DNA of 64,000 nucleotides from the NCBI GenBank assembly GCA_963716565.1, contig OY970318.1, forward strand, positions 256,830 to 320,829, given 5' to 3'. Source of the stretch: an uncultured Candidatus Saccharibacteria bacterium (GTDB taxonomy: Bacteria; Patescibacteriota; Saccharimonadia; Saccharimonadales; CAIOMD01). Positions 16,813 through 60,528 of this stretch are shown one piece after another; the first letter of the stretch is position 1; the number at the start of each line of letters is the position of its first letter. The notes under the pieces are model-generated. The model searched no databases. It had not been told where the DNA came from and saw only the letters and a list, made by a program, of their open reading frames with translations. Both the position numbers and the translations under genes were made by a program.

Positions 16813-17340
16813 ATGGCTCTATCCAAAGAGAAGAAGGCCGATGTTGTTAGCGAAGTCACCGATTTACTCGATGCTTCTAAAATGACTGTTTTGGCCGATT
16901 ACCGCGGTGTTAACGTTAAGAATATGCAAGCTTTAAGAAAAGCTGCAAAAGATAACGGCACAACCGTAAAAGTCATCAAAAACCGTTTAGTTATTAAGGC
17001 CCTAAAGAACACTAAAAACTGCAAAGCTACCGACACTAGCGCCCTAAAAGCCCAGCTACTATATGCTTTTAACGCCAATGACGAAGTAGCACCAGCTCAA
17101 GCTTTAAGCAATTTTGCTAAAAGCGAGCCCAACTTGCAGTTTGTAGGTGCCATTACGGCCGATGGTCGCTTTATTGGTATCGACGACGTTAAAGCTTTAG
17201 CCAACTTGCCAAGCAAGGATCAGCTAAGAGCTCAGCTAATTGGTACTTTAGGCGCACCACTAAGTGGTTTTGTAAATGTCTTGAGTGGTAATTTAAGAGG
17301 TTTGCTATACGTCTTAGACGCTAGAAGCAATAATTTATAA
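16813..17340 (+). CDS. rplJ: 50S ribosomal protein L10
   Basis: AAGGAG Shine-Dalgarno, typical L10 N-terminus ([22 protein letters not shown]), and synteny with rplL. Confidence 0.95.
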
Positions 17341-17369
17341 GTAAATTAAGTCATATAAAGGAGAATACT

Positions 17370-17780
17370 ATGAGCGAAGAAACCAAAGCTAAGATTGAAG
17401 CACCAAAAGAATTCGAAAAACTAGTAGCCGAATTAGACAAAATGAGTGCTCTAGAAATCAGCAAATTCGTAAAATTCTTAGAAGAGTATTGGGGCGTTAG
17501 CGCTGCAGCTCCTGCTGTAGCCGTAGCTGCCGTTGCCGCTGGCGACGCTGCTCCTGCCGAAGAAGCTAAGAGCGAATACGACGTCGTTCTAAAAGACGCC
17601 GGTGCTCAAAAAGTAGCCGTTATTAAGGCTGTCAAGGAAATAACTCAACTAGGTTTAGGCGAAGCCAAAGCCCTAGTTGACGCTGCCCCTAAGACAATCT
17701 TAGAAAAAGCTAAAAAAGAAGACGCCGAAGCTGCCAAAAAAGCTTTAGAAGAAGCTGGCGCTACCGTCGAATTAGCTTAA
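17370..17780 (+). CDS. rplL: 50S ribosomal protein L7/L12
   Basis: Ala-rich hinge and C-terminal domain [28 protein letters not shown]. Confidence 0.97.
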
Positions 17781-55012: not shown

Positions 55013-55849
55013 ATGGGAGAGAAACGCAAGACAAAGCCAATGATTTGGCAAGAGATCTACAACAAGGTTGTAGACGAAGTCAGCAAGGGCATGATCTTCT
55101 CGTTCAACGCCATCCAGCTCGGCGAGTTCGTTGACACGGTCGTAGAAGAAGGGTGGTCCCGAGGCTACCTCGACAAGCAGCTTCGCAAGTTGTTGTCGCT
55201 CGCAAGACAAGGCAAGCTGGGCCTGATGAAGTATCATGCCGACCATTTCGGCCTTGATGCCAAGATGGTCAAGCTTGCCGATGCACTCGAAGACAACGAC
55301 TTTCAGCGGAACTTCGACTTGGTGGTTGGTGTTCTCGGCAGCAACAACTACACCGTCGTTTCGGCAACTGGCCTATACCACTACCTAAGGGAAGTCCGTG
55401 CGCACGGCCTTATCGGACCCGAAATAAGCGAGCAAGTGCAAAGGCTCTGCAATTTCGTTCTCGAAGGCAGGCTCGGAGAACTCAACACCAAGAGGGCGGC
55501 CAAAGAGTTCGGGTTTGATACGTCAATCGTGTATCTGTCCTACGCCCTGTACAAGGGCAAGGCAGACCAACAAAGCCGTATCACTACAGACGACATCGTG
55601 AAGGCGATCAACCAAGAGTGTCGCGGCTACGATACCGTCGCGCTCGATCTTCTGGCGAAGTTCATAGAAGAGGTCAAGGCTGCAGAGTGGGGCCCACATA
55701 AGCTCCACCAGCAGCTCAAGGTCTTCTTCCGTCTTGCGCACAACCGCAGGCTGTCTGATGTAGGGCCCGAAAACGATTTTCTCGGGCTCGACCCAGCAGT
55801 CATGACCCGCCTGATCGATGCCTACGAGCAGGCCCACCCCCGTCTGTAA
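55013..55849 (+). CDS. hypothetical protein built from three ~85-aa internal repeats
   Basis: GGAG Shine-Dalgarno 6 nt before ATG 55013. G+C-rich. Each repeat ends in an FG(L/F)D...L..A.E pattern: HFGLDAKMVKLADALE, EFGFDTSIVYLSYALY, DFLGLDPAVMTRLIDAYE. Confidence 0.62.
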   Translation: MGEKRKTKPMIWQEIYNKVVDEVSKGMIFSFNAIQLGEFVDTVVEEGWSRGYLDKQLRKLLSLARQGKLGLMKYHADHFGLDAKMVKLADALEDNDFQRNFDLVVGVLGSNNYTVVSATGLYHYLREVRAHGLIGPEISEQVQRLCNFVLEGRLGELNTKRAAKEFGFDTSIVYLSYALYKGKADQQSRITTDDIVKAINQECRGYDTVALDLLAKFIEEVKAAEWGPHKLHQQLKVFFRLAHNRRLSDVGPENDFLGLDPAVMTRLIDAYEQAHPRL

Positions 55850-56375: not shown

Positions 56376-56476
56376 AATGTGAGTATAACAAATATTGACT
56401 TCCTAGCCCCTTTATGGTATCATATACATTATCATGGCAACCGCTGTGACGAATCGTCTCCCGAAAGGAGAAGAGG

Positions 56477-56758
56477 TTGATAATTTATTTGGATTGCAAT
56501 GCGTTACGCAGAATGGCTAGAAAGGCCCTCCGAGAGGGCACTTTGCCACCAGAATGTGACTACGTAGAAGAATCCGATCTTCTGGACATCTGGTGTTACA
56601 AGGGCGATCCTCGGATCTATTGCTCCTTCGCCGGATTGTCAGAGACAGAGTGCACACCCAAGGGGGGCTCTGTCGACGACTATATGGTTCACATAGGGTC
56701 CAGGATGGCAGTCGGGATTCTTGATCTCGGGTCTGCTGAAATTACCTGGGTCAGCTAA
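56477..56758 (+). CDS. hypothetical protein (G+C-rich orphan)
   Basis: 93-aa ORF with TTG start and AAAGGAG Shine-Dalgarno 6 nt upstream. TGGTATCAT -10 box at about 56416-56424. Confidence 0.5.
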   Translation: MIIYLDCNALRRMARKALREGTLPPECDYVEESDLLDIWCYKGDPRIYCSFAGLSETECTPKGGSVDDYMVHIGSRMAVGILDLGSAEITWVS

Positions 56759-56921
56759 ATAAAGGCAGACCCGGGCTTAGCAAACGCAACATATCGATCG
56801 GATGGGCCCTGTAATCTAGCCCGGCTAGATTGCATTGACGCTTCGCGAGTATTGCATCACCGGCCAACCTTGGCCCAACCTCTGCTGTTGGGTGATATCG
56901 CAAGATAACACCTAACAGCTT

Positions 56922-56972
56922 CCGCTCACTAAGTGTGTGCTTAGTCTGACGAGTCGAAAACGACGAAAGCGA
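56922..56972 (+). ncRNA. type III hammerhead ribozyme motif, copy 1
   Basis: CGC-U-C (predicted cleavage after 56927). Helix I ACUAAG-UGUGUG-CUUAGU, then CUGACGA. Helix II GUCG-AAAA-CGAC, then GAAA and GCG. All invariant core positions are present. Confidence 0.8.
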
Positions 56973-56980
56973 AAAACAAT

Positions 56981-57373
56981 CTAGCGTTGCCACTGGGTAA
57001 TATGCGGGGAGAAGTCTACCTGATAATCGGGTATGCCAATCGCTATGCCATATTTTGTGGCTTCGTTGTATTGCTCTTTGTTGGAGCGGTCGGTTATATG
57101 AAAAACCTTATCACGATAGATTATGTAGTGCTCTTTATCACTTCTATAATCAGCGTACCAATCATGTTCTTCGTCTAATGCTTTGCTAAGTTTTTGGGCA
57201 ACTTCGGCCGCTTTTTCTGCCGGCACTTCAACTTCGTGCATAATCCATTGCTTTACCCACGGAGTTTTATGTTTTTCGGTCGCTGGCTCAACCTCGGTTG
57301 ATACAATTTTTACGTCTTCTAATACAGATAAGTCTGTTAAGCTTTCTTCAATAATAGTGCCTCGAAAATCCAT
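56981..57373 (-). CDS. hypothetical protein
   Basis: 130-aa ORF. TGGTATCAT -10 box 6 nt before the ATG. No family recognised. Confidence 0.68.
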   Translation of the reverse strand: MDFRGTIIEESLTDLSVLEDVKIVSTEVEPATEKHKTPWVKQWIMHEVEVPAEKAAEVAQKLSKALDEEHDWYADYRSDKEHYIIYRDKVFHITDRSNKEQYNEATKYGIAIGIPDYQVDFSPHITQWQR

Positions 57374-57517
57374 ATTTTTATGATACCAGAAATCGCTAGC
57401 CGATAATGCCTTAAAGAGATATAATGTACTCGCTCGTTTTGAGTTGTTTCTACAAGATTTTTAAACCAAGAACTTGTTTTGTTTGAAAATCTTAACAGAG
57501 GCGAGCCGGCCATAAAA

Positions 57518-57558
57518 ATACGCAATTAATTTTTTGTTAAATAAAATTGATTGCGTAT
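57518..57558. repeat. AT-rich inverted repeat just upstream of tRNA-Gln
   Basis: ATACGCAATTAATTTT / AAAATTGATTGCGTAT: 16-nt arms with one mismatch and a 9-nt loop. Confidence 0.6.
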
Positions 57559-57578
57559 TAAAAGGCCGAGATCGCCGA

Positions 57579-57653
57579 TGGGACGTGGCCAAGTGGTAAG
57601 GCACCAGGTTTTGGTCCTGGCATTCGGGGGTTCGAATCCCTCCGTCCCAGCCA
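57579..57653 (+). tRNA. trnQ: tRNA-Gln (anticodon TTG), CCA encoded
   Basis: TGGGACG acceptor pairs with CGTCCCA. Anticodon stem CCAGG/CCTGG with loop TTTTGGT, T-arm GGGGGTTCGAATCCCTC, 75 nt. Confidence 0.9.
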
Positions 57654-57810
57654 CGAAAGTACCGGGTTTTATGCCCAGTTTTTTCGTGGCTTGACCAGGA
57701 AGCAAACCAACTGCTTGGTTTGCGTGGGATTCGAACAGGCGGAGCAATGTCGAGCTATTCAGCGAGACCGCGAGCCGGGCCCGAACGCAAAAAGCAAAGC
57801 TTTTTGACGT

Positions 57811-57838
57811 GTGGGTCGAAATCCCTCCGTCCCAGCCA
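57811..57838 (+). repeat. duplicate of the tRNA-Gln 3' end (T-arm half + acceptor + CCA)
   Basis: ATCCCTCCGTCCCAGCCA (57821-57838) is identical to 57636-57653. The preceding GGGTCGAA resembles GGGTTCGA of the tRNA. Confidence 0.85.
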
Positions 57839-57916
57839 AGTGATACGCATGGAATGGAAGTCCCGGAAGTCCAGGTTGCCCTGATTTGAAACGACGATAA
57901 CTGTATACTAGGTGCA

Positions 57917-58420
57917 ATGAAAGTTTTCATAACATCAAGCTCCGGTGTTGGTAAGACAGCTGTCGTCGCTGAGCTAAAAAAGCGGGGTTATACAGCTTAC
58001 GATGCTGACGACCACGAGCTTAATTTAACTAGGTTAGAAGTTAAAGAAACTGGTGAACCGGTGGAATGGCCGAAGGGTTATGTTGATTGGCATTATTACT
58101 CTTGGAGCGCTAATGAAGAAAGACTAAAAGAGCTCCTTGCTAGCGCCGAAATCGTTTTTATAAGCGGTTTTTTGGGTAATCAAGAGAAGCTGTATCATTA
58201 TTTTGATAAATTAATTGCATTAACCATTGACCCGCAAGAACATGAACGACGGCTGCGGAGTCGCCCAAAACGCGAGGTCGGTGACGATGAACAAAACATC
58301 CAACGAAGGCTAGAAAGATATTCTGGGCATATAGAAAAGTTTATTGCCACTGGCTTTATTCTTATTGATAATTCTGGTCCAGTTACACAGACTGTAGACA
58401 AAATCGAACAAGTTATTTAG
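57917..58420 (+). CDS. P-loop kinase/NTPase
   Basis: Walker A SSSGVGKTAV near the N-terminus. 167 aa. TATACT -10 box 7 nt before the ATG. Confidence 0.75.
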   Translation: MKVFITSSSGVGKTAVVAELKKRGYTAYDADDHELNLTRLEVKETGEPVEWPKGYVDWHYYSWSANEERLKELLASAEIVFISGFLGNQEKLYHYFDKLIALTIDPQEHERRLRSRPKREVGDDEQNIQRRLERYSGHIEKFIATGFILIDNSGPVTQTVDKIEQVI

Positions 58421-58539
58421 AGGTATAGCGAAAGAAAGTTAAAAAGGTCCTAGGCCGCGATGCTTAGCCAAGCATAAGCATTATTTTCTACATTTGGAAT
58501 TTTAGTAATATCAAATCCCGAAACTGTTAAACTAGTGAC

Positions 58540-59196
58540 ATGAAAATATTCTTATCATCAGCCGGCATCAGAACCGAAGAGCTGGCACAAAGTTTGTCAA
58601 ATCTCGCAGGCAAACCATTAGATCAAATTAATGTTGCAGTTATTAATGAAGCTTCTGCCGTAGAACCTGGAGATAAAACCTGGTTCATTGACGAGATCAA
58701 TTATTTAAGAAAATACATTGGCGGTGAGATTGATTTTGTTGATTTATTGGCCCTTAACATAAAAGAAATTGCAGAACGACTTGAATTTGCAGATGTCATA
58801 TATGTAGTTGGGGGCAACCCGGACTATCTACGTTTCTTATACGACAAGACTGGTTTTAGTAAACTCCTTATCGATGATCTACTTAATAAAAAGGTTTATG
58901 TGGGCAGTTCGGCTGGCTCGATGGTACTTGGCAGGCGTGGCTCTACTAATGAATACCAGCATTATTACGGTGAGGATCGTACATTTGGGACAGAAGATTA
59001 CTTAGGTGTCGTTGACTTTGTTATAAAACCACATTTTGAAAGCGCAGACTTACCGAAGAATCACAAAGATATTCTACTAAAAGCTAGCATTGATGAGCGA
59101 CTTCAAATTTATGCTATCAAAGACAGTCAAGCCATAATAAAAGATGAAGAGAAAATATCTTTTGTAGGCGGAGAAGTATTTTCTGCAGGCTCTTAA
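58540..59196 (+). CDS. peptidase S51 (dipeptidase E-like) family protein
   Basis: VVGGNPDYL and GSSAGSMVLG (Ser nucleophile) motifs. Confidence 0.83.
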   Translation: MKIFLSSAGIRTEELAQSLSNLAGKPLDQINVAVINEASAVEPGDKTWFIDEINYLRKYIGGEIDFVDLLALNIKEIAERLEFADVIYVVGGNPDYLRFLYDKTGFSKLLIDDLLNKKVYVGSSAGSMVLGRRGSTNEYQHYYGEDRTFGTEDYLGVVDFVIKPHFESADLPKNHKDILLKASIDERLQIYAIKDSQAIIKDEEKISFVGGEVFSAGS

Positions 59197-59228
59197 TTTC
59201 GAATTCTGTTCGCCAGAAGAACCCAAAT

Positions 59229-59627
59229 TTATTTCTTTATAACAGCAGTGACTTCAATTTCAACTTTGTTGCCTTTACGCGTCATGGCATTTACTTCTAG
59301 CACCGTGCTAACTGGCCTACTATTCGCGAACCATTTGTCCCTAATTGCTGACACTTTTTCGAAATCGTTCATGTCAGTTAAAAATATTTGGGCTTTTACA
59401 GCATCGTCCATAGAAGCACCGGCCGCATTTAAAGTTCTTTCGACAGCCTTAAATACGAGTTCGGTTTGTTCTTCTACATCATCTGTTATTGCTTCGTTAT
59501 TTTCGTTCTTTCCAACTTGTTGGCCAGAAACAAAGATTAAATAGGCATTGCCAATATCAATCTTCTTGGCGGGTGAATAGAACCCCCGCGTTTGTTGCCA
59601 ATCATCCGGATAAATATTCTCAATCAT
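59229..59627 (-). CDS. RidA/YjgF/L-PSP family protein
   Basis: FVSGQ, KAQIFLTDMNDF and VEIEVTAV motifs. Start reassigned to ATG 59627, 7 nt after a TGATACAAT -10 box. Confidence 0.86.
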   Translation of the reverse strand: MIENIYPDDWQQTRGFYSPAKKIDIGNAYLIFVSGQQVGKNENNEAITDDVEEQTELVFKAVERTLNAAGASMDDAVKAQIFLTDMNDFEKVSAIRDKWFANSRPVSTVLEVNAMTRKGNKVEIEVTAVIKK

Positions 59628-59767
59628 GCCTTTTATTGTATCAGACCCGTTTTTCTGTTTTCGAAGCACTACTATAATTGACTTTTTTCGTTCTTTATGT
59701 TATCCTAGGCCCATAACTACAACCCGTAGTTTGAGTTGGGGAACCGACTTGAAAACAAGGAGATTGG

Positions 59768-60122
59768 CATGCCACTGCATATACTCGTAAAAGAAGATTG
59801 GCAGACCAAGCACGGACCACCCGGATTTACGCCGTTGCTTCAAGCACAGCGCCAGTTCGAACTGGCGTTTCCGGACAACGTTGGGTTCACATTGACCGAC
59901 TTTCTTGTCGGCATCGGGAACAACGAGCCAGAGGGCAGCAAGCGCGTTAGAACCAGGATAAGCAGCCCGTTCCACGAGCTAGAGAACGCCGTCGTGGTAC
60001 AGTGCGGCCCACCGGAAGCCAGTGACAACTTCGATGCCATGGTCCAAGTCGTTCGCGATGTTGCGGATGGGTTCGTAGCGCAGATGCAGACGAACGCCAA
60101 GCAGTTCGCCGCCGAATCCTAG
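59768..60122 (+). CDS. hypothetical protein (G+C-rich orphan)
   Basis: AAGGAG Shine-Dalgarno 7 nt before ATG 59768. 117 aa with no recognisable motif. Confidence 0.55.
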
Positions 60123-60141
60123 GCCTCTGGACGCCAGCTTA

Positions 60142-60171
60142 GGTAGGGGGCGCACTATAGCGCCCCCTACC
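60142..60171 (+). terminator. perfect 12-bp GC-rich hairpin
   Basis: GGTAGGGGGCGC-ACTATA-GCGCCCCCTACC, 20 nt after the stop codon. No U-run follows. Confidence 0.5.
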
Positions 60172-60191
60172 GACAGCGCCTCCTTGTTCTC

Positions 60192-60244
60192 TTTACTTCA
60201 TAAGTGTGTACTTATGCTGACGAGTCGAAAACGACGAAAGTAAA
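60192..60244 (+). ncRNA. type III hammerhead ribozyme motif, copy 2
   Basis: UUUAC-U-U (predicted cleavage after 60198). Helix I CAUAAG-UGUGUA-CUUAUG, then CUGACGA. Helix II GUCG-AAAA-CGAC, then GAAA and GUAAA. Helix III is 5 bp plus A15.1-U16.1. Confidence 0.85.
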
Positions 60245-60294
60245 ATACTTTGCTTATGCTTGCAAGCTTATTGTTTGCAGAATATTATGAAAAC

Positions 60295-60528
60295 ATGAAT
60301 TACGAATTTGGAGGCGTTAACCATGGAGAAGAAGAGCCCAATTATGGTTATAGCCCTGAATTCACAGAGAAGATGCGCTTGAAAACTCAGGGTCTTTGCC
60401 CAGAAGATGAATATAAAGGTCAGCCTTGCATGTGCGCCAATTGCCCATATCCAAACGAATGCATTGATGCCGCTTGTGATGCTTGCGAGGGCCCCGTTTT
60501 AGAATGCGACCCAACCGAAAACAACTAA
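60295..60528 (+). CDS. small Cys-rich protein (8 Cys)
   Basis: MNYEFGG...CPEDEYKGQPCMCANCPYPNECIDAACDACEGPVLEC. TATTAT box 6 nt before ATG 60295. The track start at 60250 would lie only 6 nt past the ribozyme 3' end (60244) and upstream of that box. Confidence 0.5.
   Translation: MNYEFGGVNHGEEEPNYGYSPEFTEKMRLKTQGLCPEDEYKGQPCMCANCPYPNECIDAACDACEGPVLECDPTENN

What the first reader, a model, noticed from the sequence alone, without database searches (positions are those of the whole stretch)
56410..60300. The two hammerheads covary and both mark the 3' boundary of G+C-rich orphan cassettes
Between the copies the 23-nt catalytic block CUGACGAGUCGAAAACGACGAAA is identical. The helices differ by compensatory changes. 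In helix I, A-U becomes C-G and C-G becomes A-U (ACUAAG/CUUAGU versus CAUAAG/CUUAUG). In helix III, CGC/GCG becomes UUUAC/GUAAA. That pattern is what selection on structure produces, so these are unlikely to be chance matches.

Both copies have the same architecture: own promoter, Shine-Dalgarno-led G+C-rich orphan ORF, GC hairpin(s), then hammerhead. They may act as ribozyme 3'-end processors or insulators of acquired cassettes. Copy 1 would cut read-through before it becomes antisense to 56981-57373. Copy 2 would separate the orphan mRNA from the downstream Cys-rich gene. Alternatively, they may be remnants of a ribozyme-bearing mobile or phage element. I am not aware of this association being described for this kind of genome.
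Basis: partly seen in the sequence, partly recalled or inferred. Interest (0 to 1): 0.85.

Follow-up and report, generated by a model that had tools for sequence, protein, structure and literature searches.

The report
Hammerhead ribozymes ending swappable gene cassettes
Two genuine self-cleaving hammerhead ribozymes each sit at the end of a small, foreign-looking gene cassette, and the same layout recurs in over a hundred genomes of the ultra-small Saccharibacteria, which gives a testable clue to what bacterial hammerheads do.

Summary
Window 56923-56971 and 60192-60244 (+) are complete type III hammerheads. They share an identical 23-nt core/helix II block and differ by compensatory changes in helices I and III.

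They belong to a compact (~49 nt) hammerhead family that Rfam's thresholds miss. A capped genome scan returned 119 loci; 99 are labelled Saccharibacteria and most others belong to other candidate phyla radiation (CPR) lineages. Across 41 distinct members, helices I and III covary strongly.

The cassette layout generalises: a strong extended -10 promoter, a Shine-Dalgarno (SD) site, a small G+C-enriched ORF, hairpins, then the hammerhead.
- 82.5% of hammerheads lie 15-200 nt after a same-strand ORF, against 25.7% of random positions.
- One conserved chromosomal slot holds 10 unrelated ORF families.
- A related contig lacks cassette 2, and its homology resumes within about 9 nt of the ribozyme's 3' end.

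Best reading (inferred, not shown): the ribozyme forms the mRNA 3' end. Cleavage would leave the end nearly flush with a stable helix. In both window cassettes a predicted helix pairs the 3' UTR with the cassette's own ribosome-binding region.

Self-cleavage, in vivo RNA ends, the mobility mechanism and the function of the two orphan ORFs remain untested. This is a new variant of a known kind.

The parts
56395..56423 (+). Cassette 1 promoter: -35 TTGACT (56395-56400), 17-nt spacer ending in an extended -10 TG, and -10 TATCAT (56418-56423). The transcription start is inferred at about 56430.
   Evidence: Consensus scan gives 10 of 12 matches with TG. The motif TTGAC-N15-TGNTATNNT is found only here and at cassette 2 in the 64 kb, with 0.04 expected. 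The two promoters align.
56477..56758 (+). ORF1 (93 aa, TTG start), preceded by SD AAGGAG at 56465-70. It is an orphan and its coding status is uncertain.
   Evidence: ORF list. No homologue other than itself. No Pfam, PHROG or PADLOC hit. GC1/2/3 is 0.50/0.45/0.56, a weak coding periodicity. AlphaFold2 (AF2) mean pLDDT is 43.6.
56759..56922 (+). Structured 3' UTR of cassette 1. It holds hairpins at 56813-56831, 56862-56875 and 56885-56918. The segment CAACCUCU (56876-56883) is complementary to the SD/start region AGAGGUUG (56472-56479).
   Evidence: The fold of the 498-nt transcript has z = -5.8. The long-range helix appears in both the MFE and the centroid structure. The 8-nt perfect complement is matched by 4-9% of shuffles.
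56923..56971 (+). Hammerhead ribozyme 1, type III. Predicted cleavage is between C56927 and A56928.
   Evidence: Sequence, fold, model R1 at 69.4 bits. Rfam RF00008 gives only 18.2 bits against a gathering score of 48.5.
59678..59706 (+). Cassette 2 promoter: -35 TTGACT (59678-59683), extended -10 TG, and -10 TATCCT (59701-59706). The transcription start is inferred at about 59713.
   Evidence: Homology with L164 on the RidA side ends at window 59650, so the left cassette boundary lies within 59651-59677.
59769..60122 (+). ORF2 (117 aa, ATG start), preceded by SD AAGGAG within GAAAACAAGGAG (59751-59762). It is an orphan but probably coding.
   Evidence: GC1/2/3 is 0.64/0.38/0.68, a coding pattern, with GC3 far above native genes at 0.31-0.42. 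The only full-length match is itself; four other weak hits are short stretches in much longer proteins. It is called as a gene on a 799,209-bp contig and on a 2.7-kb Logan contig. AF2 mean pLDDT is 45.7.
60123..60191 (+). 3' UTR of cassette 2. It holds a 12-bp GC hairpin at 60142-60171. The anti-SD segment CUCCUUGUUCUC (60180-60191) abuts helix III of the ribozyme.
   Evidence: Local fold. In the 486-nt transcript fold (z = -4.1), the SD/anti-SD helix is in both the MFE and the centroid structure. The 9-nt perfect complement is matched by about 1% of shuffles.
60192..60244 (+). Hammerhead ribozyme 2, type III, with a 5-bp helix III plus the U-A pair. Predicted cleavage is between U60198 and C60199.
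   Evidence: Sequence, fold, model R1 at 67.1 bits. Homology with L164 resumes at about 60248-60253, so the ribozyme is the last element of the insert.
60260..60528 (+). Downstream neighbour, not part of the cassette: the Cys-rich ORF (60295-60528) with its own promoter TTGCAA-17-TATTAT (60260-60288).
   Evidence: Promoter scan. The gene and promoter are conserved at 82% nucleotide identity in L164, which has no hammerhead upstream.
56981..57373 (-). Convergent neighbour of cassette 1 (130-aa ORF). Its stop codon lies 10 nt beyond HHR1.
   Evidence: ORF list. No Pfam hit.

Best explanation
Both sites are functional-looking type III hammerhead ribozymes. They belong to a compact family (7-bp helix I with a GUGU-type loop; helix II GUCG-RAAA-CGAC) that is abundant in Saccharibacteria and other CPR bacteria and has relatives in phage contigs.

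Each ribozyme is the last module of a self-contained accessory-gene cassette of about 0.6 kb:
- a near-consensus extended -10 promoter;
- a leader with an SD site;
- a small G+C-enriched ORF, probably acquired horizontally;
- one or more stable hairpins;
- the hammerhead.

Proposed mechanism. The ribozyme is transcribed at the end of the mRNA, folds, and cuts after position 17 (C56927 and U60198). The cassette mRNA would then carry a 2',3'-cyclic phosphate end only a few nucleotides beyond a stable helix. The ribozyme body and any read-through RNA would leave as a separate 5'-OH fragment. In effect the ribozyme does the work of a terminator hairpin: it sets a precise, structure-protected 3' end and uncouples the cassette transcript from whatever lies downstream.

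In both window cassettes the 3' UTR next to the cut is complementary to the cassette's own SD/start region. The finished mRNA is therefore predicted to close on itself, which may limit translation to the co-transcriptional period or stabilise the RNA.

What is shown: the motif, its covariation, its non-random position, cassette replacement between conserved ends, and the predicted structures.

What is inferred: cleavage itself, the consequences of the new 3' end, and the role of the fold-back helix.
For: Core and helices:
- Every conserved core position is present: C3 U4 G5 A6 N7 G8 A9, G12 A13 A14, the A15.1-U16.1 pair, and H17 = C or U.
- 128 of 134 pattern hits form the type III fold.
- Helices I and III show 3-5 pair types per position, are 100% paired, and score 0.766 for covariation against 0.206 in shuffles.
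- Loop 1 positions U12, G13 and U16 are at least 90% conserved, which suggests a tertiary contact.

Position relative to genes:
- 99 of 120 hammerheads lie 15-200 nt after a same-strand ORF of at least 70 aa, against 25.7% of random positions.
- Only 13% lie inside long ORFs, against 72% of random positions.

Cassette nature:
- L045 and L076 share flanks at 92-93% identity, but the ~600 nt between the leader and the ribozyme are unrelated.
- One conserved slot holds 10 ORF families, and the same family appears in different slots.
- L164 lacks cassette 2, and its homology to the window begins about 4-9 nt past HHR2.
- The cassettes are G+C-enriched relative to flanks by +4.8% on average, in 89 of 99 cases (p = 2e-14).
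- ORF families show an excess of third-position and synonymous change, so they are coding.

3'-end design:
- In 110 non-redundant predicted post-cleavage ends, the last 80 nt fold with mean z = -3.55.
- A median of only 3 nt is left unpaired at the 3' end.
- An upstream segment often mimics the ribozyme's helix III 3' strand.

Fold-back helix:
- The window transcripts fold with z = -5.8 and -4.1, with the SD/3'-UTR helix in both the MFE and the centroid structure.
- In the main Saccharibacteria class, leaders pair better with their own tails than with other cassettes' tails: -11.1 against -7.4 kcal/mol, permutation p < 1e-5.

Precedent: bacterial hammerheads flank single genes of varying identity in prophages and cleave during in vitro transcription (PMC3088659).
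Against: - No cleavage assay or RNA-end data exist for any member of this family.
- Rfam's type III model scores the window copies at 18-19 bits, against a gathering score of 48.5.
- Helix III of copy 1 has only 3 bp plus the U-A pair, which could make it slow or dependent on its context.
- The window's SD/3'-UTR complementarity is short: 8 and 9 perfect bp, matched by about 4-9% and about 1% of shuffles. A duplex-energy test on longer segments did not discriminate.
- In the main-class example L076 the MFE pairs the tail with a local 3'-UTR arm rather than with the leader. The fold-back may therefore be an alternative state, or a by-product of direct repeats.
- Two neighbouring G+C-rich cassettes use ordinary hairpins or a terminator, so the ribozyme is not required for such cassettes.
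- Many of the 126 loci are orthologous, so the counts overstate the number of independent observations.
Confidence: 0.6

Rival explanations
1. Expression throttle or switch. The ribozyme exists mainly to lower or gate expression of a potentially harmful acquired gene. Cleavage would remove a stabilising 3' structure or expose the mRNA to decay. Alternatively, competition between the leader or local arm and helix III would make cleavage conditional, as in a riboswitch-like device.
For: - The helix III 5' strand has alternative upstream partners that mimic the ribozyme's 3' strand, so ribozyme folding could be regulated.
- SD sequestration is predicted in both window cassettes.
- Perreault et al. 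raised regulated cleavage for phage hammerheads (PMC3088659).
- From general knowledge: glmS and the mammalian CLEC2 3'-UTR hammerheads reduce expression through cleavage.
Against: - Predicted post-cleavage ends are hairpin-flush, which would be expected to protect the RNA rather than expose it.
- The promoters are near-consensus, which suggests high expression is wanted.
- No ligand-binding or sensor element is evident in a 49-nt ribozyme whose loops are invariant in length.
Confidence: 0.2
2. Inherited baggage. The hammerheads are relics of phage or mobile-element transcription units (moron-like modules). They are carried along with the cassettes and have no present role for the bacterium.
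For: - Close type III relatives with the same helix II block occur in viral contigs L001, L032, L033, L014 and L008/16/26, some in clusters of four.
- Some cassette proteins match phage families: phrog_301 'secreted protein' at E = 4e-14, a borderline Pfam Tad4 anti-Thoeris hit, and STIV_B116-like.
- The window region is a mosaic island that includes a tRNA-Gln with a 19-nt repeat of its 3' end.
Against: - The core is invariant and the helices are kept by compensatory change across about 100 species-level genomes.
- The ribozyme stays while the gene in front of it is replaced. A relic would decay, and this one is the most conserved part of the locus.
- The main Saccharibacteria variant was absent from the 36 viral contigs that carry the block.
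Confidence: 0.12
3. DNA-level recombination site. The conserved ends (promoter/leader and the hairpin plus hammerhead) act mainly as homology arms or as attI/attC-like sites for cassette exchange. RNA cleavage would be secondary.
For: - Cassettes are swapped precisely between the conserved leader and the ribozyme block.
- In main-class cassettes, a leader segment and a 3'-UTR arm form direct repeats bracketing the ORF. The tail is their inverted copy, which recalls integron core sites and attC.
- The right edge of cassette 2 coincides with the end of HHR2.
Against: - Covariation preserves RNA pairing, including G-U wobbles on the transcribed strand.
- All catalytic nucleotides are invariant, which DNA homology alone does not require.
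- No recombinase was found next to the loci examined (der-cassette-cobW-like in L076). The whole window was not screened for one.
Confidence: 0.06
4. Circular-RNA or retrozyme-like element. The two ribozymes would excise the 3.27-kb interval between them, or each cassette RNA would be circularised.
For: - Both copies are on the same strand, 3,271 nt apart.
- The cassette RNAs are unusually structured and their ends are brought together.
Against: - The interval contains a tRNA, minus-strand genes and independent promoters.
- Each cassette has only one ribozyme. Its 5' end would be a primary triphosphate, which cannot be ligated to a cyclic phosphate.
- In other genomes the hammerheads occur singly at separate loci.
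Confidence: 0.02

Closest known systems
Type III hammerhead ribozyme (Rfam RF00008, clan CL00010)
   Same: It has the complete catalytic core, the A15.1-U16.1 pair, a non-G nucleotide at position 17, and three helices with helix III open. Cleavage would yield a 2',3'-cyclic phosphate and a 5'-OH.
   Different: It is much more compact than the viroid and satellite seeds: a 4-bp helix II with a tetraloop, and a 7-bp helix I with a 4-nt loop. It therefore scores 18-38 bits against a gathering score of 48.5. It is encoded in a bacterial chromosome, not in a circular RNA replicon.
Clustered hammerheads flanking individual genes in prophages (Perreault et al. 2011, PMC3088659)
   Same: These are DNA-encoded hammerheads placed between genes whose identity varies, for example the anti-restriction gene ardA. 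They were proposed to cut long transcripts into single-gene mRNAs and they are active during in vitro transcription. Multi-hammerhead loci of this kind also exist in other CPR genomes and in viral contigs here.
   Different: In the window and in the main Saccharibacteria class there is one ribozyme per promoter-driven monocistronic cassette. The ribozyme is at the 3' end only. The cassettes sit in conserved chromosomal slots without prophage genes. The ribozyme is coupled to a flush 3' hairpin and to leader or SD complementarity.
Phage 'morons' (general knowledge: an extra gene with its own promoter and terminator and atypical G+C)
   Same: It is an autonomous promoter-gene-3' element unit with foreign base composition, inserted between resident genes. 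The neighbouring cassette 51235-50775 is a textbook example with an intrinsic terminator.
   Different: The 3' element is a ribozyme instead of a terminator, and the host locus is not a prophage.
Fold-back inhibition of hok mRNA in hok/sok (general knowledge)
   Same: A 3'-terminal segment pairs with the 5' translation-initiation region. The full-length mRNA is therefore compact, stable and poorly translated. The exact 3' end decides which fold forms.
   Different: No antisense RNA or toxin has been identified. The 3' end would be set by self-cleavage rather than by exonuclease trimming. The pairing is predicted, not demonstrated.
Integron gene cassettes (attC)
   Same: Unrelated small ORFs share a structured 3' element and exchange at fixed chromosomal positions.
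   Different: These cassettes carry their own promoter. They occur singly rather than in arrays. The 3' element is a catalytic RNA motif. No integron integrase was seen near the loci examined.
Synthetic ribozyme insulators and 3' hammerheads used in expression constructs (general knowledge)
   Same: The engineering logic is the same: a self-cleaving ribozyme gives a defined transcript end that does not depend on genetic context.
   Different: This would be a natural and widespread counterpart.

Membership tests
Hammerhead ribozyme, type III | Conserved core: C3-U4-G5-A6-N7-G8-A9 and G12-A13-A14 | tested here: met
   CUGACGA ... GAAA is present in both copies. These columns are invariant in all 41 aligned family members. 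That invariance was partly imposed by the search pattern.
Hammerhead ribozyme, type III | An A15.1-U16.1 pair and a non-G nucleotide at cleavage position 17 | tested here: met
   U56926/A56968 with C56927, and U60197/A60239 with U60198. U-A is present in 41 of 41 members.
Hammerhead ribozyme, type III | Three helices around the core, helices I and II capped and helix III open, supported by covariation | tested here: met
   Helices I and III are 100% paired, with 9 of 15 pairs changed on both sides. The covariation score is 0.766 against 0.206 in shuffles and at most 0.131 when the partner is slid. Helix II could not vary because the search pattern fixed it. CM hits with other helix II sequences exist in L048.
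Hammerhead ribozyme, type III | Reaches the Rfam RF00008 gathering score | tested here: not met
   18.2 and 18.7 bits against 48.5. Relatives score 22-38 bits. This is attributed to the model's viroid-type seeds. It is a curation threshold, not a biochemical criterion.
Hammerhead ribozyme, type III | Loop-loop tertiary contact that allows activity at low Mg2+ | not testable with these tools
   The only indirect sign is that loop 1 positions U12, G13 and U16 are at least 90% conserved and loop 2 is RAAA.
Hammerhead ribozyme, type III | Site-specific self-cleavage | not testable with these tools
   This needs in vitro transcription or mapping of RNA ends.
Prophage gene-flanking hammerhead clusters (Perreault 2011) | Several hammerheads within one polycistronic prophage transcript, flanking genes on both sides | tested here: not met
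   Each window cassette has its own promoter and a single 3' ribozyme. The two copies are separated by a tRNA and by minus-strand genes. No phage structural or integrase genes were detected among the ORFs scanned between 47 and 61 kb.
Moron-like autonomous accessory cassette | Own promoter, a single ORF, a 3'-end element, and atypical base composition relative to flanks | tested here: met
   GC3 is 0.68 in ORF2 against 0.31-0.42 in native genes. Presence or absence of the cassette is shown by L164.
hok-type fold-back mRNA | A 3' end that pairs with the translation-initiation region | tested here: inconclusive
   The helix is predicted in the MFE and centroid folds of both window transcripts, but it is only 8-12 bp long. 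The main class shows leader-tail covariation, and there is also a competing local hairpin.
Integron cassette | An attC site recombined by an IntI integrase, with promoterless cassettes arranged in arrays | tested here: not met
   The cassettes have their own promoters and occur singly. No integrase lies adjacent in L076. The window was not exhaustively screened for recombinases.
Retrozyme or viroid-like circular RNA | Unit-length RNA excised by ribozymes at both ends and then circularised | tested here: not met
   There is one ribozyme per unit. The interval between the two copies holds unrelated genes on both strands.

The most novel reading that the evidence does not exclude
Saccharibacteria, and more loosely other CPR bacteria, may possess a previously undescribed gene-cassette system. 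A few conserved chromosomal slots would each consist of a strong promoter/leader and a hammerhead ribozyme. These slots would be filled interchangeably with unrelated, often phage-like or anti-defence-like, small genes.

In this reading the ribozyme is the functional 3' terminus of the module. After self-cleavage the mRNA end snaps back onto an upstream mimic of helix III, or onto the mRNA's own leader/SD. The result would be a sealed transcript whose translation is gated.

The same ribozyme family also forms dense arrays of non-coding units around a type IV-A-like DinG helicase in a Parcubacteria genome (L048). That hints that CPR bacteria use hammerheads generally as a protein-free RNA-processing device.
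Probability: 0.3. Interest if true: 0.85.

Novelty: new variant of a known kind. Interest (0 to 1): 0.7.

Why it matters
Hundreds of hammerheads have been known in bacteria and phages since 2011, yet their biological role is still described as unclear (PMC3088659).

This family has a stereotyped position: the last element of monocistronic cassettes whose genes are swapped while the ribozyme stays. It also occurs in cultivated, sequenced strains (Nanosynbacter TM7-008, TM7-053 and TM7-087). A specific hypothesis therefore becomes directly testable with existing cultures and RNA-end mapping. The hypothesis is ribozyme-made, hairpin-flush 3' ends, possibly with fold-back control of translation.

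The finding also flags two further points.
- A large ribozyme family escapes standard Rfam-threshold annotation.
- It marks hot spots of accessory-gene exchange in the reduced genomes of episymbiotic bacteria. Some of these carry phage-like proteins, including a borderline anti-Thoeris (Tad4) match.

Full-text searches found no paper linking hammerheads with Saccharibacteria, Patescibacteria or CPR. The searched library lacks most subscription journals.

Tried and rejected
Searches and analyses that gave nothing useful:
- Rfam at gathering thresholds shows no hammerhead. Only sub-threshold hits appear.
- The generic CUGANGA...GAAA descriptor and the covariance model with filters off find no third copy in the window.
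All were the main Saccharibacteria class, and none resembled the window's helix I/III variants.
- BLAST against cultured phage genomes gave only chance-level 23-nt matches.
- ORF1 and ORF2 have no homologues by word-indexed search. For ORF2 a full HMMER scan returned only short multi-stretch hits to long proteins, which I treat as spurious. There were no Pfam, PHROG or PADLOC hits. Single-sequence AF2 models had pLDDT 44-46, too low for a fold search.
- RNAduplex on 50-75-nt leader and tail segments did not discriminate from random segments. I replaced it with an exact-complement test and full-transcript folds.
- A synteny search of window proteins against all fetched loci found nothing. The exact-protein look-up for the 130-aa neighbour found nothing, and for RidA only the same small Logan contig. 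More distant RidA homologues are not syntenic.

Ideas rejected:
- Chance match.
- Excision of the 3.27-kb interval as one RNA, because of the genes on both strands and the tRNA between the copies.
- A second ribozyme in the conserved leader. It lacks a CUGANGA core and has no Rfam hit.
- The hammerhead as a universal end of G+C-rich cassettes in this genome.

Full report
**1. The observation**

The 23-mer CTGACGAGTCGAAAACGACGAAA occurs exactly twice in the window, at 56946-56968 and 60217-60239, both on the + strand. No match appears in 100 shuffles, even with three mismatches allowed.

Read in context, each site is a complete type III hammerhead.
- Copy 1 (56923-56971): CGC-U-C, helix I ACUAAGU/GCUUAGU with loop GUGU, CUGACGA, helix II GUCG/CGAC with loop AAAA, then GAAA-GCG.
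- Copy 2 (60192-60244): UUUAC-U-U, helix I CAUAAGU/ACUUAUG, the same core and helix II, then GAAA-GUAAA.

All canonical core positions are present, as are the A15.1-U16.1 pair and a non-G nucleotide at position 17. Predicted cleavage is after C56927 and after U60198. The MFE and centroid folds give the three-way junction.

Rfam does not report either site at its gathering score. With a permissive threshold the type III model matches both at about 18 bits against a cut-off of 48.5.

A descriptor scan and a covariance model find no further copy in the 64 kb.

**2. The family**

*Where it occurs.* Scanning public collections with the helix II block produced three sets of loci.
- Viral contigs: 36 loci, a mixture of type I and type III hammerheads, some in clusters of four.
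- Metagenomes: 8 loci.

Of the 119 genome loci, 99 are labelled Saccharibacteria, Saccharimonas or Nanosynbacter. These include the cultivated strains TM7-008, TM7-053 and TM7-087. Most of the others belong to other CPR lineages. A few bins are labelled Bdellovibrionales, Micavibrio, Nanoarchaeia or Atopobium.

*Fold and covariation.* 128 of 134 pattern hits have the same compact type III fold. An ungapped 49-column alignment of 41 distinct sequences was tested for pairing.
- Pairing is 100% in helices I and III.
- Nine of 15 pairs change on both sides, with 3-5 pair types per position.
- The covariation score is 0.766 against 0.206 in shuffles (0 of 500 reach it) and at most 0.131 when the 3' partner is slid.

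Caveats: helix II was fixed by the search pattern, six unpaired hits were excluded, and many members are orthologues. Covariance-model hits with other helix II sequences do exist (L048).

No searchable paper links hammerheads with Saccharibacteria, Patescibacteria or CPR.

**3. Position and cassette nature**

*The window cassettes.* Both start with a promoter of the form TTGAC-N15-TGNTATNNT. This motif occurs nowhere else in the window, and the two promoters align with each other. Each cassette then has an SD-led ORF, hairpins and the ribozyme.

*Generality across loci.*
- 82.5% of hammerheads lie 15-200 nt after a same-strand ORF of at least 70 aa, against 25.7% of random positions (p = 1e-37).
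- Only 13% lie inside long ORFs, against 72% of random positions.
- The upstream ORFs fall into 38-47 unrelated families, depending on the clustering thresholds.
- The segment from ORF to ribozyme is G+C-enriched relative to its flanks in 89 of 99 cases, by +4.8% on average (p = 2e-14).
- Families with several members show an excess of third-position and synonymous change, so they are coding.

*Evidence of exchange.* In the main Saccharibacteria class the cassette lies between a conserved promoter/leader and the conserved ribozyme.
- L045 and L076 share flanks at 92-93% identity, yet the ~600 nt between leader and ribozyme are unrelated.
- One slot, next to a cobW-like gene, holds 10 ORF families in 35 genomes.
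- The same ORF family appears in different slots.

*Boundaries of cassette 2.* The JGI contig L164 has RidA at 93% nucleotide identity. It also has the Cys-rich gene with its promoter at 82% identity, but no cassette and no hammerhead. Its homology to the window begins about 4-9 nt after HHR2 and, on the other side, ends at 59650. HHR2 is therefore the last element of a ~0.6-kb insert, not part of the Cys-rich gene's leader.

*Qualification.* Two neighbouring G+C-rich cassettes end without a ribozyme.
- ORF 55013-55849 (+ strand) ends in a hairpin.
- ORF 51172-50870 (- strand) is followed by a classical intrinsic terminator ending about 50775.

The hammerhead is therefore one of two kinds of 3' end in this mosaic island. 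The island also contains a tRNA-Gln with a 19-nt repeat of its 3' end.

**4. What the cassettes encode**

The window ORFs.
- ORF1 and ORF2 are orphans, with no family hits and unusable AF2 models.
- ORF2, and the neighbouring hammerhead-less ORF 55013-55849, have a clear coding GC1/2/3 pattern. Their GC3 is about 0.7, against 0.31-0.42 in native genes, which is consistent with recent acquisition.
- ORF1 shows only weak periodicity, so its coding status is open.

Hits for representatives of main-class and other family cassettes.
- phrog_301 'secreted protein', E = 4e-14.
- Pfam Tad4 (Thoeris inhibitor), 27.4 bits against a cut-off of 25. This is borderline: the L076 orthologue gave no Pfam hit at E ≤ 0.01.
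- STIV_B116-like.
- AAA_28.

The cargo therefore looks like phage-type accessory genes.

**5. Mechanism**

*What can be computed.*
- For 110 non-redundant loci, the 80 nt ending at the predicted cut fold far better than shuffles (mean z = -3.55). A median of only 3 nt is left unpaired at the 3' end.
- In many cassettes an upstream segment mimics the ribozyme's helix III 3' strand. After cleavage the mRNA end can therefore snap back into a long terminal hairpin.
- In the window, the full transcripts from the inferred start to the cut fold with z = -5.8 and -4.1.
- In both window transcripts, the MFE and centroid structures contain a long-range helix between the SD/start region and the 3' UTR: 56472-56479 with 56876-56883, and 59751-59762 with 60180-60191.
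- These complements are short. They are matched by about 4-9% and about 1% of shuffles respectively.
- In the main class, leader segments pair better with their own tails than with other cassettes' tails (permutation p < 1e-5).
- However, a local 3'-UTR arm competes with the leader and wins in the MFE of L076.

*Inference.* The ribozyme acts as a protein-free 3'-end-forming element. It would leave a cyclic-phosphate end flush with a helix, which should be a poor substrate for 3' exonucleases. It would also detach the cassette mRNA from read-through. A fold-back onto the ribosome-binding region is a possible further layer. None of these steps has been observed.

**6. Comparison with what is known**

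The closest precedent is the arrangement described by Perreault et al. (PMC3088659). There, hammerheads flank single genes of varying identity in prophages, including ardA, and they cleave during in vitro transcription. The authors state that the function is unclear.

The present case differs in four ways.
- There is one ribozyme per promoter-driven cassette, at the 3' end only.
- The cassettes sit in conserved chromosomal slots of CPR genomes.
- The gene is exchanged while the ribozyme is retained.
- The ribozyme is coupled to a flush hairpin and to leader complementarity.

The arrangement works like a moron whose terminator is a ribozyme. It also resembles hok-type fold-back mRNAs and, at the DNA level, integron cassettes. 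It fails the defining tests for prophage clusters, integrons and retrozymes (see the membership table).

**7. Verdict**

The function is plausible but untested. This is a new variant of a known kind. It is of good interest because it makes the open question of what bacterial hammerheads do testable in culturable strains.

Noticed in passing
L048:2477-6526 (JANLIU010000041.1, Candidatus Parcubacteria): At least 11 hammerheads of the same compact family lie on one strand, 130-300 nt apart, with no ORFs between them. Each is preceded by a GCUGGGG...CCCCGC hairpin. Many units contain a conserved structured piece of about 80 nt. The array brackets a 592-aa helicase that matches PADLOC typeIV_DinG (CAS-IV-A associated, E = 1.3e-40). 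It looks like a ribozyme-processed non-coding RNA array.
   Followed up: partly
window:57579-57838: tRNA-Gln (57579-57653) is followed by a G+C-rich 166-nt stretch and then by an exact 19-nt repeat of the tRNA's 3' end (57635-57653 and 57820-57838). This is the footprint of an element once integrated at the tRNA.
   Followed up: partly
window:50775-51235 (- strand): A further G+C-rich (0.60) cassette. It has an extended -10 promoter, an SD site, a 100-aa CxxCxGxG zinc-finger-like ORF (51172-50870) and a classical intrinsic terminator. This is a moron-like unit without a ribozyme.
   Followed up: partly
window:55013-55921: A G+C-rich (0.54) orphan ORF of 278 aa, with a coding GC3 of 0.70. It ends in the hairpin AAAGGAGGCU...AGCCUCCUU, with no T-run and no hammerhead.
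   Followed up: partly
L040, L045, L051, L076 and other main-class loci, about 550-850 nt upstream of the hammerhead: A conserved leader follows the promoter (CAGCUUUUGUUGACAAG...CUUGUCCGAAAGCGCACUUUGACAAGCAG). Part of it is repeated as the 5' arm of the 3'-UTR hairpin, so direct repeats bracket the variable ORF. Its GAAAGCGCAC resembles the ribozyme's own 3' end, GAAAGCGAAC. The meaning is unknown: RNA switching or cassette recombination.
   Followed up: partly
Non-Saccharibacteria CPR loci (e.g. L041, L052, L080, L089, L102, L109, L117, L151), 2-6 nt after the hammerhead: A conserved GUUCUUUA-like motif follows the ribozyme. Its function is unknown.
   Followed up: no
L039, L070, L054, L134: Hammerheads of the same family occur in bins labelled Bdellovibrionales, Micavibrio, Nanoarchaeia and Atopobium. 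Either other predatory or episymbiotic lineages share the family, or these are mis-binned Saccharibacteria or CPR contigs.
   Followed up: no
L164 against window:59223-60519: In a close relative, RidA and the Cys-rich gene are directly adjacent and convergent. In the window they are separated by cassette 2 and have a different relative orientation. The island is therefore rearranged between relatives.
   Followed up: partly
window:59229-59669 (- strand): The longest RidA ORF (146 aa, GTG start) is probably 14 codons too long. Homologues are 132 aa, which places the start at 59627 (MIENIY...).
   Followed up: no
window:16631-16756 (+ strand): A ribosomal protein L10 leader (Rfam RF00557, 45.6 bits, just above its gathering score of 44) lies upstream of the ORFs at 16813-17780.
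   Followed up: no
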